A DNA stretch of 64,000 nucleotides. Origin: Escherichia coli (GTDB lineage Bacteria > Pseudomonadota > Gammaproteobacteria > Enterobacterales > Enterobacteriaceae). The notes beneath the pieces were generated by a model. It saw nothing but the letters and a program-made list of their open reading frames with translations, was not told the DNA's origin and made no database searches. Each line of letters begins with the position of its first letter. Position 1 is the first letter of the stretch. Shown in pieces: positions 2,380-62,056 of this stretch. Position numbers and translations under genes: made by a program. The stretch is from the NCBI RefSeq assembly GCF_003018115.1, contig NZ_CP027457.1; one strand, 5' to 3'.

Positions 2380-2458
2380 GTTGTTTGTGTGATACTGTAA
2401 AGTTGGTAGATTGTGACTGGCTTAAAAAATCATTAATTAATAATAGGTTATGTTTAGA
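2380..2458 (+). promoter_or_regulatory. CRISPR leader (AT-rich) immediately upstream of repeat 1
   Basis: AT-rich ...tggtagattgtgactggcttaaaaaatcattaattaataataggttatgtttaga directly abutting the first repeat; resembles the E. coli I-E leader from memory. Confidence 0.6.
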
Positions 2459-3219
2459 GAGTTCCCCGCGCCAGCGGGGATAAACCGAAAATTGGGACGC
2501 TAACTCATGGGTCTGGGTAGAGTTCCCCGCGCCAGCGGGGATAAACCGGGAAAAACGCCTGTGGTTGGGGCTGAACCAGGGAGTTCCCCGCGCCAGCGGG
2601 GATAAACCGTCGGCGCGCTCTCTGTAGAGCGGTTGTGTGATGAGTTCCCCGCGCCAGCGGGGATAAACCGTCGTCGGGTCCGACAGGGGTCGGTTGTTCG
2701 CCGAGTTCCCCGCGCCAGCGGGGATAAACCGGCTTAATAAACGAGGAGAATACCGATGTTTTTAAGTTCCCCGCGCCAGCGGGGATAAACCGTTCTTTTA
2801 ATGGCGTCAGGCCCATTACAGAGCGAGTTCCCCGCGCCAGCGGGGATAAACCGTTTTGACGATTATTCTAAAAGTGAAAATAGCAGAGTTCCCCGCGCCA
2901 GCGGGGATAAACCGCACGCTGGAGTGACCGGGTGGCAGAGCATGACGAGTTCCCCGCGCCAGCGGGGATAAACCGCCATTTCATCATGAACGGCGGAAAT
3001 ATCGTGGGAGTTCCCCGCGCCAGCGGGGATAAACCGGTCAGTTCCCGGTTGATATATATGATGAGCATGAGTTCCCCGCGCCAGCGGGGATAAACCGCGC
3101 AATGGCGCGGCGATTGCTCTCGAGATCAAGTGTTCCCCGCGCCAGCGGGGATAAACCGGGTACAAAAGAGGCCCCATTCTGGCAGGGCTCGAGTTCCCCG
3201 CGCCAGTGGGGATAAACCA
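2459..3219 (+). CRISPR. Type I-E CRISPR array, 13 repeats and 12 spacers (queE-ygcE side)
   Basis: 29-bp repeat GAGTTCCCCGCGCCAGCGGGGATAAACCG at 2459, 2520, 2581, 2642, 2703, 2764, 2825, 2886, 2947, 3008, 3069, 3130, 3191 with exact 61-bp period and 32-bp unique spacers. Repeat 6 starts AAG, repeat 12 starts GTG, terminal repeat 13 is degenerate (..CCAGTGGGGATAAACCA). Confidence 0.97.
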
Positions 3220-3308
3220 CCATATAACCCGTTATCTCTTTCTCAAGTTTTTATATTAGCTGTACTTGTAATAAGCAACATATCCACGTAACACCTCATG
3301 TTCATAAT

Positions 3309-3332
3309 AGTTCCCCATGCCAGATAAGTTCA
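3309..3332 (+). repeat. Decayed CRISPR repeat remnant
   Basis: agttccccatgccagataag resembles the repeat with an internal deletion, about two repeat-spacer units beyond the terminal repeat. Confidence 0.3.
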
Positions 3333-3687
3333 CAATTATCGATACAAAAAATTAAAGTTAATCAAAGTGTTATTTGTATAATTCTTAAGCCGTTAAGAAA
3401 TTTTAATCTATTATTTTTTTAATATTAATTAATGCCTGTTAATTTTTTCTTTAGTATAACAGTGTGTTTTTTAAGCTTGTTATTCATTGATTAAGTAATA
3501 AATCTGGAAATTTGTCTTTGTTTTGAGGCTAATGAGTGGTTTTACATAACCGCCTCTATACGCTGTTGATGAATAGTTCTTATGAATAAAGATATCCAGT
3601 TCATACTTTAAGTGAAAATTGATAAAGTGCGATTCGTATTGTCTTTTATTCTAAAGACATCGAGTGTAGTTAATATTCCTTGTAAAA

Positions 3688-3810
3688 ACAGGGATAAACC
3701 GAACTAGTTGAAGTTTTTATTATGTTCCCTGCATCAGCGGGGATAAACCGGACTTGTTATCATTTTTTAAGTTGTCGAACTTATGTTCCCCGCGTCAGCG
3801 GGGATAACCA
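3688..3810 (+). CRISPR. Degenerate satellite CRISPR array (3 repeat copies, 2 spacers), preceded by an AT-rich leader-like stretch
   Basis: Partial repeat ..acagggataaaccg (3688-3701), 20-bp spacer, repeat ATGTTCCCTGCATCAGCGGGGATAAACCG (3722-3750), 32-bp spacer, repeat ATGTTCCCCGCGTCAGCGGGGATAACC (3783-3810). Confidence 0.8.
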
Positions 3811-3856
3811 TTCAGGTATGTTCAGGCCGGGCAGTTTCCCGCCCGGTCTTCCTCAC

Positions 3857-5335
3857 TTACGCATTCGACCAGCTCTGGATCGAATCCGCATTCCCCAATT
3901 CCCCATGCATCACTTCATACGATTTTTTCAGGATCACATCAGTATGTTTGGTTAGGGCTTTGAAAATACCTTTATTCATCGCGTCGTAGCGTTTGGCATT
4001 GCTCTCAACAGGCATAAAGATATCTTTCACGCGAACCATTTTGTCGACAGCCGTTGCGTAATCCGGGTATAGCCCCAGACCTACCGCCGTATTGATCGCT
4101 GCCCCCAGACTTGCACAACCGTTAATGGCGTTACGGCGTGCAGGAAGGTTGAACACGTCGGCAAAAATTTGCATAAATAGATCGCTGTTCGAACCGCCGC
4201 CAGTAATGATCACATGCTTTGCAAAGTGATTCATTTCATTACACATATTGTCGTAATTGTTCTTCAGCGTCAGCGCCACGCTTTCCAGTATCGAACGATA
4301 TATCCATGCGTAATCCATGCTGGAATCAAAGCCGATCATAATCCCACGTTTGTAGGGTTCCCACGGGTTGGTCAGCCAGTCCAGCACCGTCATCAGACCA
4401 TTACAGCCAGGCGGCACACAAGAAGCTTTTTTGTTGAGCAAATCTTCCGGTGAAAGATCCTGTGCTTTGGCATCCTGAATTAACGACTCGCCTAACATGT
4501 CGCGTAGCCAGCTCACCGTCCACATGCCTTTACGGATACCGTACCCTTCATACAGCAATGTTTCCGGAATAGAAGACATAATCGGCCAGTACGCCACCGG
4601 ATCTTTCGGCAGTGCTTTACCGTTCATCATCAGCGCGATGTAGGTGCCAAGAGAAATCACCGCCGTTTCATCATCCAGCAATCCGGCTCCCAGAGCTTCT
4701 ACCGGTTTATCACTGGTGGTACAAACAACCGGCAGCCCTGCCGGGAAATGTGTCGCCAGCGCGGCTTGAGGTGTGATCTGTCCAAGAACAGTGCCTGGCA
4801 TTTGCACATCAAACAGCATATGACGGGGGATATTAAACTTCTCCATGACTGCGGCATCTTCACTCCATGCCCAGCTCTTATAATCCACCGGCCACTGACC
4901 AAAATAGTTGGCGATATTGTCTTTAAACTCGCCGGTTAAGCGATGCGTCAGATAACCCGAAAAAGAGGTGACATATGCCACGTCAGGATTAGTGTGTTCG
5001 TAGGGACGCGTTACGCGTGCATCCTGCCAGCTAATCAATGGCGCAGCTGGCGTGCCATCGGCTTTCAATAACGCACGGCAGCAACGGATGGATCCCAGAC
5101 CAATACCGACAATATCTTCTTTATTCCCGGCAAACTGACTCATCAAATCGTGACCGGCAAAACATAATGATGCCCATAAATCGTCGTCAGGATGTTCTGC
5201 GGTATCGGCATCTGGCGTGTGCATCGGCTGCAATAAGCCTTTACCTTCGCAAACCACATTACCTTCCAGATCGTACATCACCACTTTTGTGCTCTGACTT
5301 CCGCCATCAATCCCTATGATGTATTTTTTCGACAT
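3857..5335 (-). CDS. ygcE: FGGY-family carbohydrate kinase
   Basis: 492 aa; N-terminus MSKKYIIGIDGGSQSTKVVMYD (FGGY kinase N-terminal motif); synteny. Confidence 0.88.
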   Translation of the reverse strand: MSKKYIIGIDGGSQSTKVVMYDLEGNVVCEGKGLLQPMHTPDADTAEHPDDDLWASLCFAGHDLMSQFAGNKEDIVGIGLGSIRCCRALLKADGTPAAPLISWQDARVTRPYEHTNPDVAYVTSFSGYLTHRLTGEFKDNIANYFGQWPVDYKSWAWSEDAAVMEKFNIPRHMLFDVQMPGTVLGQITPQAALATHFPAGLPVVCTTSDKPVEALGAGLLDDETAVISLGTYIALMMNGKALPKDPVAYWPIMSSIPETLLYEGYGIRKGMWTVSWLRDMLGESLIQDAKAQDLSPEDLLNKKASCVPPGCNGLMTVLDWLTNPWEPYKRGIMIGFDSSMDYAWIYRSILESVALTLKNNYDNMCNEMNHFAKHVIITGGGSNSDLFMQIFADVFNLPARRNAINGCASLGAAINTAVGLGLYPDYATAVDKMVRVKDIFMPVESNAKRYDAMNKGIFKALTKHTDVILKKSYEVMHGELGNADSIQSWSNA

Positions 5336-11455: not shown

Positions 11456-12312
11456 ATATCGCAATTGTGACAATAAATCAGGAGAATGCCGCAATAGCAA
11501 GCTGGCTGGCGGCGCAGGATTTCAGCGGTTGTACCCTGGCGCACTGGCAGATTGAACCTCAGCCTGTAGTGGCGGAACAGGTGCTGGATGCGTTGGTGGA
11601 ACAGTGGCAGCGAACGCCTGCGGACGTTGTTCTCTTTCCGCCGGGAACGTTTGGCGATGAACTGTCGACCCGGCTGGCCTGGCGTTTACATGGTGCAAGC
11701 ATCTGCCAGGTGACTTCGTTAGATATTCCAACCGTAAGCGTGCGCAAATCCCACTGGGGAAATGCGCTAACGGCGACGCTGCAAACAGAAAAACGCCCGC
11801 TATGCCTTTCCCAGGCGCGTCAGGCGGGAGCAGCGAAAAACGCCACGTTGCCCTCTGGAATGCAACAACTGAACATTGTCCCGGGTGCGCTTCCCGACTG
11901 GCTGGTTAGCACAGAGGATCTGAAAAATGTTACTCGCGACCCATTAGCTGAGGCCAGACGGGTGCTGGTGGTGGGGCAGGGCGGAGAGGCAGATAACCAG
12001 GAAATCGCTATGCTGGCAGAAAAGCTGGGAGCCGAAGTGGGCTACAGTCGGGCGCGAGTGATGAACGGTGGCGTTGATGCTGAAAAAGTGATTGGTATTT
12101 CCGGACATCTGCTGGCACCTGAGGTGTGTATTGTTGTTGGCGCTTCTGGCGCAGCAGCGTTAATGGCGGGCGTACGCAATAGCAAGTTTGTGGTGGCGAT
12201 TAATCATGACGCCAGCGCTGCGGTATTTTCACAGGTAGATGTTGGCGTGGTTGATGACTGGAAAGTGGTGCTGGAGGCACTGGTGACAAACATTCACGCA
12301 GATTGCCAATAA
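11452..12312 (+). CDS. ygcQ: Electron-transfer flavoprotein alpha subunit (FixB-like)
   Basis: 286 aa; ATGA overlap with the ygcR stop. Confidence 0.85.
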   Translation: MNIAIVTINQENAAIASWLAAQDFSGCTLAHWQIEPQPVVAEQVLDALVEQWQRTPADVVLFPPGTFGDELSTRLAWRLHGASICQVTSLDIPTVSVRKSHWGNALTATLQTEKRPLCLSQARQAGAAKNATLPSGMQQLNIVPGALPDWLVSTEDLKNVTRDPLAEARRVLVVGQGGEADNQEIAMLAEKLGAEVGYSRARVMNGGVDAEKVIGISGHLLAPEVCIVVGASGAAALMAGVRNSKFVVAINHDASAAVFSQVDVGVVDDWKVVLEALVTNIHADCQ

Positions 12313-59785: not shown

Positions 59786-60192
59786 GTGAAAAGGTGGTGT
59801 TCAGTCAACTGAGCCGTAAATTTATTGATGAGAACGATGCCACGCCCGCCGAGGCGCAGCAGGTGGTCTATTACAGCCTGGCGATTGGTCACCACCTTGG
59901 GGTTATCGATTGCCTGGAAGCGGCGCTCACCTGCCCGTGGGATGAATATCTGGCATGGATTGCCACTCTGGAGGCGGGCAGCGAAGCCCGCCGCAAAATG
60001 GAAGGCGTACCGAAGTACGGTGAGATCGTCATCGACATTAACCATGTGCCGATGCTGGCCAATGCATTCGATAAAGCCCGGGCAGCGCAAACTTCGCAGC
60101 AGCAGGAATGGAGTACAATGCTGTTAAGTATGCTGCATGATATTCATCAGGAAAACGCCATCTATTTGATGGTGAGGAGACTGCGTGACTGA
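59782..60192 (+). CDS. hycH: Formate hydrogenlyase maturation protein HycH
   Basis: 136 aa; operon position. Confidence 0.9.
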
Positions 60193-60655
60193 CGTTTTAC
60201 TCTGTGTTGGCAATAGCATGATGGGTGATGATGGCGCAGGTCCGCTGCTGGCGGAAAAGTGCGCCGCCGCGCCGAAAGGTAACTGGGTGGTGATTGACGG
60301 CGGTAGCGCACCGGAAAACGACATCGTCGCCATCCGTGAACTGCGCCCGACACGGCTGCTGATTGTCGACGCCACGGATATGGGGCTAAACCCCGGCGAA
60401 ATCCGCATCATCGACCCGGATGATATCGCCGAGATGTTTATGATGACTACCCATAACATGCCGTTGAACTACCTTATCGATCAGTTGAAAGAAGATATTG
60501 GCGAAGTGATTTTCCTCGGCATCCAGCCGGATATCGTCGGCTTTTACTACCCGATGACCCAGCCGATTAAAGATGCGGTTGAAACCGTTTATCAACGACT
60601 GGAAGGCTGGGAAGGAAATGGTGGATTTGCGCAGTTAGCGGTGGAAGTAGAGTAG
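60185..60655 (+). CDS. hycI: Hydrogenase 3 maturation endopeptidase HycI
   Basis: 156 aa; [20 protein letters not shown]. Confidence 0.93.
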   Translation: MTDVLLCVGNSMMGDDGAGPLLAEKCAAAPKGNWVVIDGGSAPENDIVAIRELRPTRLLIVDATDMGLNPGEIRIIDPDDIAEMFMMTTHNMPLNYLIDQLKEDIGEVIFLGIQPDIVGFYYPMTQPIKDAVETVYQRLEGWEGNGGFAQLAVEVE

Positions 60656-60679
60656 TTTTTCATTAAGGAATTCAGGGAA

Positions 60680-61453
60680 TTGAACATCAGAACAGGGATG
60701 TGCGCTTTTTTATTGAGCTTAGTGCTGCCTGTACAGGCCACCAGCTTTACCGAATATCTGCCGATGAGTGACAGCGAATACGCGCAAAAGCGGGCGCTGA
60801 AACCTCTCCTGACCATGCCTTATGATGCCGAGCAAAACTGGCATTTTAGAAAAGTCGGCGTTGCTGGCGTGACGCTTGAAAAGATGCCAAATGATGATAG
60901 TGAATGGCAATTGAACGGTAAAGATCGCGCCGGTAAATCCTGGTCTGTGCCTGTGGGGGTGCTGCAAAATATGGCGGGTAATGCGCAACTTTACCGTGCC
61001 GATCTTGATCGTAACGGCATTCAGGATCTGGTTATCTGGCGGGGTATTTCAGGAAATGGTCTGGCACCTAACGCGTTTTTGATTCTGATGACCTTTAATC
61101 AGCAAGGTCGCCCGTGTGTTTTTCAGTCCGATGGTTTTTATACCGCAAGTGAAACTGGCATTGATGATTTGCTGGATTTACAAAGGAATGGCCACACGCA
61201 ATTGCTGGATATGCAGTTTGATTCCGGTTACTGGATAACCAGTCTGTATCAGGTAAAAGACGCCAAATGGCAGCGTGTTCACGGCTGGTTTGGCAAGTTA
61301 AGCTATCCCGCGCTCACGCGTTTTACTTATACCCCCAACCGTAAACTCGTCCTCAAACCCATCGCCGGGCGCGACCCGCAAACGGAAGATCTGGCGCAGA
61401 CGCAGCGTTGCTTGATAAAGGGGGATGTGCTTTATGGGGTGAACCAGAACTGA
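60680..61453 (+). CDS. Secreted protein of unknown function (signal peptide; Asp-rich FG-GAP/VCBS-like motif)
   Basis: 257 aa from TTG 60680, or 251 aa from ATG 60698; N-terminus MCAFLLSLVLPVQA|TSF is signal-peptide-like; motif ADLDRNGIQDLVIW; not in the K-12 hycI-ascB interval as I recall it. Confidence 0.6.
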   Translation: MNIRTGMCAFLLSLVLPVQATSFTEYLPMSDSEYAQKRALKPLLTMPYDAEQNWHFRKVGVAGVTLEKMPNDDSEWQLNGKDRAGKSWSVPVGVLQNMAGNAQLYRADLDRNGIQDLVIWRGISGNGLAPNAFLILMTFNQQGRPCVFQSDGFYTASETGIDDLLDLQRNGHTQLLDMQFDSGYWITSLYQVKDAKWQRVHGWFGKLSYPALTRFTYTPNRKLVLKPIAGRDPQTEDLAQTQRCLIKGDVLYGVNQN

Positions 61454-61523
61454 CTTTTTGCAGAGTGGCTATGAGGGGGATTACGTGCAGACAGACGTCA
61501 CGTTACTACAGAGAGAACAAAGA

Positions 61524-61943
61524 ATGACTGCTAATGCTGCACGCGCTGTTAAAGCAACAAGAGAACTGGTCAATGCAGTCCCCTTTCTGGGAGGCAGTGA
61601 CTCAGAAGATGATTATCGTGAAGCACTGGAACTGGTCGAATATTTGATTGAAGAAGATGACACCAATCCACTTATCGACTTTCTGGCGAGCCGCATTGCA
61701 GAGTATGAAAACAACAACGAAAAGTTTGCAGAGTTCGACAAAGCCGTTGCGGCAATGCCGGTTGGCGTGGCGTTACTTCGCACGTTGATTGATCAACATA
61801 ATCTGACCTATGCGGATTTGAAGAACGAAATCGGCTCTAAATCCCTGGTCAGTCAGATTTTGTCTGGACAACGATCCCTGACAATATCCCACATTAAGGC
61901 ACTTTCAGCCCGATTTGGCGTTAAGCCGGAATGGTTTCTTTGA
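61524..61943 (+). CDS. HigA-family HTH (XRE-type) antitoxin-like regulator, no cognate toxin adjacent
   Basis: 139 aa from ATG 61524 (alternative starts GTG 61485, TTG 61458); layout ...VPFLGGSDSEDDYREALELVEYLIE...NPLIDFLASRIAEYE...FAEFDKAVAAMPVGVALLRTLIDQHNLTYADLKNEIGSKSLVSQILSGQRSLTISHIKALSARFGVKPEWF parallels E. coli HigA as remembered. Confidence 0.65.
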   Translation: MTANAARAVKATRELVNAVPFLGGSDSEDDYREALELVEYLIEEDDTNPLIDFLASRIAEYENNNEKFAEFDKAVAAMPVGVALLRTLIDQHNLTYADLKNEIGSKSLVSQILSGQRSLTISHIKALSARFGVKPEWFL

Positions 61944-61959
61944 TTTTGACTGATGCCAA

Positions 61960-62045
61960 ACCCCAGATTGCCCGATGCGCTGCGCTTATCGGGCCTACAT
62001 GTCGCACGAACTATGTAGGCCGGATAAGGCGTTCACGCCGCATCC
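61960..62045. repeat. REP/BIME palindromic units
   Basis: gcccgatgcgctgcgcttatcgggcctacatg ... gtaggccggataaggcgttcacgccgcatccggca. Confidence 0.75.
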
Positions 62046-62056
62046 GGCACGGTTAC

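What the first reader, a model, noticed from the sequence alone, without database searches (positions are those of the whole stretch)
61458..61943. Solo HigA-family HTH protein with no HigB-like partner
The second inserted gene closely parallels E. coli HigA as remembered in both the N-terminal dimerisation region and the C-terminal XRE HTH (..GSKSLVSQILSGQRSLTISHIKALSARFGVKPEWF). There is no RelE/HigB-sized ORF on either side: upstream is the 257-aa secreted protein, downstream a REP element and then ascB. It is either an orphan antitoxin acting as a regulator of the adjacent gene, or the remnant of a degraded toxin-antitoxin pair.
Basis: partly seen in the sequence, partly recalled or inferred. 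Interest (0 to 1): 0.5.

Follow-up and report, generated by a model that had tools for sequence, protein, structure and literature searches.

The report
Orphaned HigA antitoxin after toxin deletion
This gene is the surviving antidote half of an E. coli HigB/HigA toxin-antitoxin pair whose toxin gene and promoter were cut out by a roughly 0.4-kb deletion, which is an ordinary product of toxin-antitoxin decay.

Summary
Window 61524-61943 (+) encodes an intact 139-aa HigA-type antitoxin (E = 2.5e-35 to solved E. coli K-12 HigA, 46% identity), and no HigB-sized gene lies beside it.

In 1092 of 5426 complete E. coli genomes the same hycI-ascB site carries a 103-aa HigB toxin gene that overlaps the start of a higA encoding the identical protein. 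In the window, 421 bp of that arrangement (operator palindrome, promoter, higB codons 1-94) are replaced by 22 bp of filler. Only the last 29 nt of higB remain (61499-61527).

This exact junction is shared by 502 genomes. A second, independent deletion (ST131 and others) accounts for about 915 more, so orphan higA (1416 genomes) outnumbers paired higA. The K-12 "empty" site is a scar of the same island.

The window's allele is DNA-identical to a paired allele, so its deletion is recent. In the older orphan lineage, higA shows dN/dS of 0.03-0.10, which suggests retained function.

"Regulator of the adjacent 257-aa gene" is not supported. This is a known kind of thing and of modest interest.

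The parts
61524..61943 (+). higA: intact orphan antitoxin gene (139 aa plus stop). N-terminal helical region, C-terminal XRE-type helix-turn-helix.
   Evidence: RefSeq CDS in a 100%-identical locus. phmmer to K-12 HigA structures E = 2.5e-35. Pfam HTH_3 at residues 85-138. The protein is identical to the one paired with HigB in other strains.
61499..61527 (+). 3' remnant of higB: part of codon 95, codons 96-103 (RYYRENKE) and the TGA stop, which overlaps the higA ATG as ATGA.
   Evidence: DNA alignment with intact loci L001, L003, L016, L017, L021 and L022. tblastn hit SRYYRENKE at 61498-61524.
61477..61498 (.). Deletion junction: 22 bp of filler (GGGATTACGTGCAGACAGACGT) standing in place of 421 bp (L001 2338-2758) that held the operator, the promoter and higB codons 1-94.
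   Evidence: Alignments. A 60-bp probe across the junction matches 502 of 5426 genomes, 500 of them at 99% identity or more.
61458..61523 (+). Non-coding 5' extension of the mechanical ORF, not part of the gene. It includes the junction and the retained 25 nt upstream of the higA ATG.
   Evidence: ORF list compared with the annotated start and with paired loci, where higA starts at the ATG overlapping the higB stop.
60698..61453 (+). Upstream neighbour: 251-aa (257 aa from the TTG at 60680) signal-peptide protein of unknown function. It belongs to the same variable island but is not functionally tied to higA.
   Evidence: No Pfam, NCBIfam or PADLOC hit. It occurs without higA (L030), and higBA occurs without it.
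61949..62056 (.). REP-like repeated intergenic element between higA and the end of ascB.
   Evidence: This part of the query matches a median of 37 places per E. coli genome.
60185..60655 (+). hycI, the last gene of the formate hydrogenlyase operon. No terminator is predicted between it and higA, so read-through is the only visible source of higA transcription.
   Evidence: The promoter/terminator scan finds no + strand terminator in 60100-61900 and only one weak promoter-like site, at 60797. There is no stable structure at 61430-61540.

Best explanation
The gene is the surviving antitoxin half of a chromosomal type II HigB-HigA module that sits between hycI and ascB in many E. coli.

Shown:
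- The ancestral arrangement was: secreted-protein gene, then promoter and operator, then higB (103 aa), then higA (139 aa, with its start overlapping the higB stop).
- In the window's lineage a single deletion removed 421 bp and left 22 bp of filler. The lost DNA held the autoregulatory operator palindrome, the sigma-70 promoter and higB codons 1-94.
- The deletion stopped 25 nt upstream of the higA ATG, so higA and its ribosome-binding region are untouched.
- The window's higA is identical in DNA to a still-paired allele, so the loss is recent.

Inferred:
- Deletions that take the toxin and spare the antitoxin are the survivable ones, which would explain why two independent deletions both end just upstream of higA.
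- With its own promoter gone, higA can only be transcribed by read-through from the upstream gene or the hyc operon.
- The protein should still dimerise, bind GTTYACA-N3-TGTRAAC operators and bind HigB of its own subfamily, but this locus now offers it neither toxin nor operator.
- In this strain it is therefore a recently orphaned antitoxin. Any activity it keeps must act in trans, for example on the 78%-identical HigBA modules carried by enterobacterial plasmids and phage-plasmids.
For: Intact higB-higA at the same site encodes the identical HigA protein WP_000126294.1. That HigB matches K-12 HigB structures at E = 4.5e-21 and Pfam HigB_toxin. Base-level alignment fixes the deletion, and tblastn finds the remnant. 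The lost DNA contains the promoter TTGTGA-17-TATAGT and the palindrome GTTTACA-TAT-TGTGAAC, which has 13-nt arms in L003. Population counts in 5426 genomes are higA 2508, higB 1092, this junction 502, and the second junction 658 + 257, which together account for every higA. The window allele equals paired allele L022 at all 420 nt. The K-12 spacer is a scar holding fragments of the island. No terminator or new promoter lies upstream of higA.
Against: The 22-bp filler has no identifiable source in any allele examined, so the event was not a clean two-ended deletion. Expression of the orphan gene is inferred only from the absence of a terminator, and nothing here shows the protein is made. The direction of change (deletion rather than insertion of higB) is inferred from the higB 3' remnant and the shared flanks, not from a rooted phylogeny.
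Confidence: 0.9

Rival explanations
1. The orphan is an exapted gene kept by selection for a function in trans. One option is anti-addiction or immunity against incoming HigBA modules on plasmids or phage-plasmids, by neutralising their HigB or repressing their promoter. The other is a transcription factor with new chromosomal targets. This is compatible with the deletion origin but disputes that the gene is a mere relic.
For: In the older orphan lineage (the ST131-type junction, about 915 genomes), six alleles picked by DNA similarity alone have 15 segregating sites, of which 12-13 are synonymous and 2-3 are not (binomial P about 1e-4 or less against neutrality). Ten of the 15 carry variants private to that lineage. 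Pairwise dN/dS is 0.03-0.10, the same as for flanking hycG/H/I. Orphan higA (1416 genomes) outnumbers paired higA (1092), and the only disrupted copy seen was one of the 5 that fall below 95% identity. HigBA about 78% identical sits on hundreds of Klebsiella, Enterobacter and Leclercia plasmids and on a Cronobacter phage. Their HTH region is nearly identical and their promoter carries two GTTCACA-TAT-TGTAAAC sites with the same half-sites as the lost operator. The anti-addiction role of orphan antitoxins is a published hypothesis (PMC7354431).
Against: For the window's own junction there has been no time to test this, since the alleles differ by 0-1 synonymous sites. Homologous recombination could import higA variation from paired alleles. 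The sample is small and clonally biased. Cross-neutralisation at 78% identity is untested, and TA pairs are often insulated. No operator-like site occurs in the 64-kb window beyond chance.
Confidence: 0.3
2. HigA is a dedicated regulator of the adjacent 257-aa secreted-protein gene.
For: The only support is adjacency and shared strand.
Against: In the full island the HigA operator and promoter lie downstream of that gene and drive higBA. higBA exists without that gene. That gene exists without higA. higA is conserved where that gene is reduced to a 55-61-aa stub. No operator-like sequence lies upstream of it.
Confidence: 0.04
3. The antitoxin still has a partner here, either an unconventional toxin (the 257-aa protein or a small unannotated ORF) or the paralogous K-12-type HigB elsewhere in the genome.
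For: K-12-type higBA is present in 4377 of 5426 genomes. HigA families can re-pair with unrelated toxins in general (own knowledge).
Against: The 257-aa protein has a signal peptide and no toxin-family hit. The small ORFs nearby are junction artefacts. The window's HigA is only 46% identical to K-12 HigA, and the cognate HigB (lost from the window) only 37.5% identical to K-12 HigB. The operator arms also differ, GTTGCCA in K-12 against GTTTACA here. Strain F9792, which has this junction, lacks higBA at fadH-rlmG.
Confidence: 0.03

Closest known systems
E. coli K-12 HigB-HigA (YgjN-YgjM; PDB 5IFG, 5YCL, 6JQ4, 6KML)
   Same: Same fold family and length (139 versus 138 aa), with alignment end to end at E = 2.5e-35. 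In intact orthologous loci the gene order is the same, toxin first with an ATGA overlap. The operator architecture is also the same, 7-nt arms with a 3-nt spacer overlapping the promoter.
   Different: It is a paralogue, not the same locus: hycI-ascB versus fadH-rlmG. HigA is 46% identical and HigB 37.5% identical. The operator arms are GTTTACA versus GTTGCCA. In the window the toxin, promoter and operator are deleted.
Plasmid and phage-plasmid HigBA of Klebsiella, Enterobacter and Leclercia (e.g. p60214CZ_1, NZ_CP085744.1)
   Same: Same subfamily: HigA 77.7% and HigB 78.6% identical, with a near-identical HTH and the same operator half-sites.
   Different: These modules are complete and sit on mobile replicons. 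The window copy is chromosomal and lacks the toxin.
Orphan antitoxins as a class (surveyed in Klebsiella; reviewed in PMC7354431)
   Same: An antitoxin gene without an adjacent toxin. Most such orphans were judged to be remnants of degraded canonical systems, which is what is shown here at base level.
   Different: Here the intact progenitor, the exact breakpoints and the population frequencies of two independent losses are all visible within one species.
PD-Lambda-2 anti-phage system (PADLOC models PD-Lambda-2_A and _B)
   Same: The cognate HigB matches component A (E = 1.4e-14), and HigA matches the first ~115 positions of component B (E = 2.4e-14).
   Different: Component B is a 402-position profile of which only the N-terminal quarter is matched. 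No further components of that system are present. This is resemblance, not membership.

Membership tests
HigA antitoxin, E. coli K-12 (YgjM) type | Full-length sequence homology to structurally characterised HigA | tested here: met
   phmmer E = 2.5e-35, residues 9-138 aligned to 8-136 of 5IFG_B. Global identity 45.7%.
HigA antitoxin, E. coli K-12 (YgjM) type | C-terminal XRE-type helix-turn-helix domain | tested here: met
   Pfam HTH_3 at residues 85-138, E = 2.1e-9, 37.7 bits against a cutoff of 23.
HigA antitoxin, E. coli K-12 (YgjM) type | Encoded immediately downstream of, and overlapping, a HigB toxin gene | tested here: not met
   Not met in the window: only 29 nt of higB remain. It is met for the identical protein in 1092 other genomes.
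HigA antitoxin, E. coli K-12 (YgjM) type | Palindromic operator in its own promoter (autorepression) | tested here: not met
   The operator GTTTACA-TAT-TGTGAAC and the promoter are present in intact loci but lie inside the deleted 421 bp. There is no such site in the window beyond chance.
HigA antitoxin, E. coli K-12 (YgjM) type | Binds and neutralises HigB | not testable with these tools
   This needs co-expression rescue or a binding assay.
HigA, NCBIfam TIGR02607 antidote_HigA (short Proteus/Vibrio type) | Score above the curated cutoff | tested here: not met
   14.4 bits against a cutoff of 47.7. The gene belongs to the longer YgjM-type lineage, not this one.
Complete type II toxin-antitoxin module | Toxin and antitoxin genes both intact in one operon | tested here: not met
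   The toxin gene lacks codons 1-94 of 103 and the promoter is deleted.
PD-Lambda-2 defence system | Full-length component B plus the remaining components | tested here: not met
   HigA covers only positions 9-115 of the 402-position B profile, and no other components are in the locus.

The most novel reading that the evidence does not exclude
The orphan HigA may not be a passive relic. It would then be a selected chromosomal immunity factor, retained after two independent toxin losses in about a quarter of E. coli genomes, including ST131 and O104:H4. Transcribed as a passenger of the hyc operon, it would neutralise HigB or silence the higBA promoters of incoming plasmids and phage-plasmids of the same subfamily (78% identical, same operator half-sites), weakening their addiction or defence function.
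Probability: 0.2. Interest if true: 0.5.

Novelty: already known. Interest (0 to 1): 0.25.

Why it matters
Orphan antitoxins are common in genome annotations, and whether they are debris or working genes is usually left open. This locus gives an unusually clean natural series within one species: the full island, toxin-only loss (twice, independently), loss of both genes, and a final scar in K-12. Exact breakpoints and frequencies are visible for each stage.

For the window itself the conclusion is mundane. It holds a recent toxin deletion that left the antitoxin intact.

The wider pattern is a modest, testable pointer toward an anti-addiction role. Orphans outnumber pairs, and the older orphan lineage shows housekeeping-like purifying selection. 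It also warns annotators that "helix-turn-helix domain-containing protein" at this site is a HigA, and that the 161-aa ORF call is too long.

Tried and rejected
- I looked for a hidden toxin. A six-frame tblastn of the whole window with the cognate HigB and K-12 HigB, at permissive settings, found only the 9-residue remnant at the locus and chance-level hits elsewhere.
- I looked for a relocated operator. The 17-mer with up to 3 mismatches gave no match, and the degenerate GTTYACA-N3-TGTRAAC with up to 2 mismatches gave 1 match at 11684, against 0.56 expected by chance.
- I looked for a new promoter or a terminator at the junction and found none.
- I tried to trace the 22-bp filler to any higBA allele (L001, L003, L016, L017, L021, L022) without success.
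- I tried to use strain F9792 as a stand-in for the window's genome. It is identical over the 1.4-kb locus but only 98-99.2% identical elsewhere, so it is a different strain. I use it only as an example of a strain with this junction.
- Literature searches for this specific locus (hycI/ascB with toxin-antitoxin; HigA with orphan antitoxin) found only general reviews.
- Structure prediction and the large protein-database searches were not run, because the PDB and genome comparisons already settled identity and origin.

Full report
**What is at the coordinates**

The biologically meaningful start is the ATG at 61524, which gives 139 aa. This is the RefSeq call (WP_000126294.1) in a locus 100% identical to the window over 1421 bp. 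In related loci this same ATG overlaps the stop codon of the upstream gene. The 66 nt from 61458 to 61523 are an ORF extension that reads across a deletion junction.

**Is it HigA?**

Yes.
- phmmer against all PDB chains returns only E. coli K-12 HigA (5IFG_B, 5YCL_A) at E = 2.5e-35. Residues 9-138 align to 8-136.
- Global identity to K-12 HigA is 45.7%.
- Pfam sees only the C-terminal HTH_3 domain (residues 85-138, E = 2e-9).
- The NCBIfam model for the short Proteus/Vibrio HigA type is far below its cutoff (14.4 versus 47.7 bits). The protein therefore belongs to the longer YgjM-type lineage.

**Is the toxin really missing?**

Yes. No RelE/HigB-sized ORF flanks the gene. A permissive six-frame tblastn of the whole window, using both the cognate HigB and K-12 HigB, finds only SRYYRENKE at 61498-61524, plus chance-level hits elsewhere.

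**What happened**

A search of 5426 complete E. coli genomes shows that the hycI-ascB spacer is polymorphic. In strain 98E11 (L001) the order is:
- hycI
- a 247-aa hypothetical gene
- 173 bp of spacer
- higB (103 aa, annotated as a HigB-family toxin)
- higA, with its ATG overlapping the higB stop as ATGA

The HigA protein there is identical to the window's. That HigB matches K-12 HigB structures at E = 4.5e-21 and Pfam HigB_toxin.

Base-level alignment gives the breakpoints.
- Homology between the window and the intact loci runs to window 61476 (L001 2337) and resumes at window 61499 (L001 2759).
- L001 2338-2758 (421 bp) is replaced by 22 bp, GGGATTACGTGCAGACAGACGT, for which I found no source.
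- The lost DNA holds a promoter-like site, TTGTGA-17-TATAGT.
- It also holds the palindrome GTTTACA-TAT-TGTGAAC overlapping the -35 element. In L003 this has 13-nt arms at 92% complementarity.
- It also holds higB codons 1-94.
- The last 29 nt of higB (61499-61527) and 25 nt upstream of the higA ATG survive.

**Population picture**

| Feature | Genomes (of 5426) |
|---|---|
| higA | 2508 |
| higB | 1092 |
| 60-bp probe across the window's junction | 502 (500 at 99% identity or more) |
| Second junction, main form | 658 |
| Second junction, SNP variant | 257 |

- The window's junction therefore stems from a single event that is now widespread. It occurs in O104:H4 and O103:H2 strains.
- The second junction is unrelated to the first. 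It fuses codon ~55-61 of the upstream gene to a point 26 nt before the higA ATG. It is the ST131 type.
- The sum 1092 + 502 + 658 + 257 = 2509 matches the 2508 higA-positive genomes. Two deletions therefore explain essentially every orphan.
- Orphans (1416 genomes, 26% of the total) outnumber pairs (20%).

Other haplotypes complete the decay series.
- higBA occurs without the upstream gene (L003, L016).
- The upstream gene occurs alone (L030).
- The K-12 spacer of 158 bp is a patchwork of the upstream gene's 5' end, its 3' end and the sequence just after higA. It is a scar of the same island.

**Age and selection**

The window's higA is identical at all 420 nt to a still-paired allele (L022). 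Alleles carrying the window's junction differ by 0-1 synonymous sites. The window's deletion is therefore recent, and nothing can be said about selection since it occurred.

The ST131-type lineage is older.
- All its alleles share a diagnostic T at position 192.
- Six alleles chosen by DNA similarity alone have 15 segregating sites. Of these, 12-13 are synonymous and 2-3 are not (binomial P about 1e-4 or less under neutral expectation).
- Ten of the 15 carry variants not seen in paired alleles.
- Pairwise dN/dS is 0.03-0.10, indistinguishable from flanking hycG, hycH and hycI in the same genomes.
- One frameshifted copy was seen (L006). Only 5 of the 2508 copies fall below 95% identity.

This argues that the orphan is kept by purifying selection in that lineage. 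The caveats are recombination with paired alleles, the small sample, and clonal over-representation in the database.

**Mechanism**

Shown:
- The gene is intact.
- Its cognate toxin, promoter and operator are gone.
- No terminator or stable structure separates it from the upstream gene or from hycI.
- No new promoter was created at the junction.

Inferred:
- Transcription is by read-through from the upstream gene or the hyc operon.
- The protein keeps its dimer and HTH properties.
- Toxin-first loss is the survivable direction of decay. That would explain why both deletions stop just short of higA.

**Possible trans roles**

This HigBA subfamily is common on mobile DNA.
- HigB at 60-80% identity is found on more than 500 plasmids, mostly Klebsiella, Serratia, Escherichia, Enterobacter and Leclercia. 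It is also on a Cronobacter phage at 76.7% identity.
- HigA reaches 77.7% identity on plasmids.
- In an Enterobacter replicon that carries phage tail genes, the HTH region is almost identical to the window's. The higB promoter there has two GTTCACA-TA(T/A)-TGTAAAC sites, the same half-sites as the lost chromosomal operator.

Cross-repression or cross-neutralisation is therefore plausible. It fits the published anti-addiction idea for orphan antitoxins (PMC7354431), but it is untested.

The paralogous K-12 higBA is a poor candidate partner.
- Identities are 46% for HigA and 37.5% for HigB.
- The operator arms differ, GTTGCCA against GTTTACA.
- It is absent from the fadH-rlmG site in F9792, a strain with this junction.

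**The "regulator of the neighbouring gene" idea**

This is rejected. The operator lay downstream of that gene. The two genes occur independently of each other. higA is conserved where the neighbour is a 55-61-aa stub. No operator-like site lies in the window beyond chance.

**Comparison with what is known, and verdict**

This is a HigA of the YgjM type that fails the "complete TA module" test in this genome because of a mapped deletion. As a kind of thing, an orphan antitoxin left by TA decay, it is already known (PMC7354431).

The locus-specific details appear not to have been described in the searchable literature. They are the two independent toxin losses, orphans outnumbering pairs, the K-12 scar, and the signature of selection. 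They are incremental. Interest is low to moderate.

Noticed in passing
window 60680/60698-61453 (+): The upstream 251/257-aa signal-peptide protein has no Pfam, NCBIfam or PADLOC hit. Its protein accession differs between strains whose HigA is identical, so it evolves faster than HigA. It contains two DxD/NxNGxxDL-like motifs (DLDRNGIQDL, DLQRNGHTQL).
   Followed up: partly
L015 (K-12 NC_000913.3 2842415-2842572), equivalent to window 60656-62056: The 158-bp hycI-ascB spacer of K-12 is a mosaic of the island's upstream-gene 5' end, its 3' end and the sequence immediately after higA. The reference "empty" site is therefore a deletion scar, not an uninvaded site.
   Followed up: yes
L004 (ST131 strain 2822) 2420-4420: In ST131-type loci ascB and ascF are absent. 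higA is followed by a 145-aa hypothetical gene on the opposite strand and then by hydN and hypF, so a further rearrangement removed the asc operon.
   Followed up: no
L014 (K-12 higBA, fadH-rlmG) and L027 (F9792): The K-12-type higBA locus is itself polymorphic. It is full length in 2825 genomes, about 1550 match only 67% of the query (a different higB 5' part), and about 1050 have no match. F9792 has fadH and rlmG 110 bp apart with no higBA.
   Followed up: partly
window 61477-61498: The 22-bp filler at the deletion junction (GGGATTACGTGCAGACAGACGT) has no counterpart in any intact allele examined. It contains short inverted ACGTG/CACGT motifs and may be templated or derive from an unsampled allele.
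   Followed up: partly
L001 2476-3203 (cognate higB-higA): The cognate HigB and HigA hit the PADLOC models PD-Lambda-2_A and the N-terminal quarter of PD-Lambda-2_B (E about 1e-14). This hints that the intact module may be related to a known E. coli anti-phage system.
   Followed up: no
window 61949-62056: A REP-like repeat between higA and ascB matches a median of 37 places per E. coli genome. In one strain (SW07164, L013) an IS621 follows higA.
   Followed up: no
window 1-50000 versus L028 (F9792): The window is not strain F9792 despite 100% identity over the higA locus. Elsewhere identity is 99.2% and 98.0%, with a 2.7-kb offset near the window's start, in the region where F9792 is annotated with CRISPR arrays, a truncated cas3 and IS elements.
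   Followed up: no
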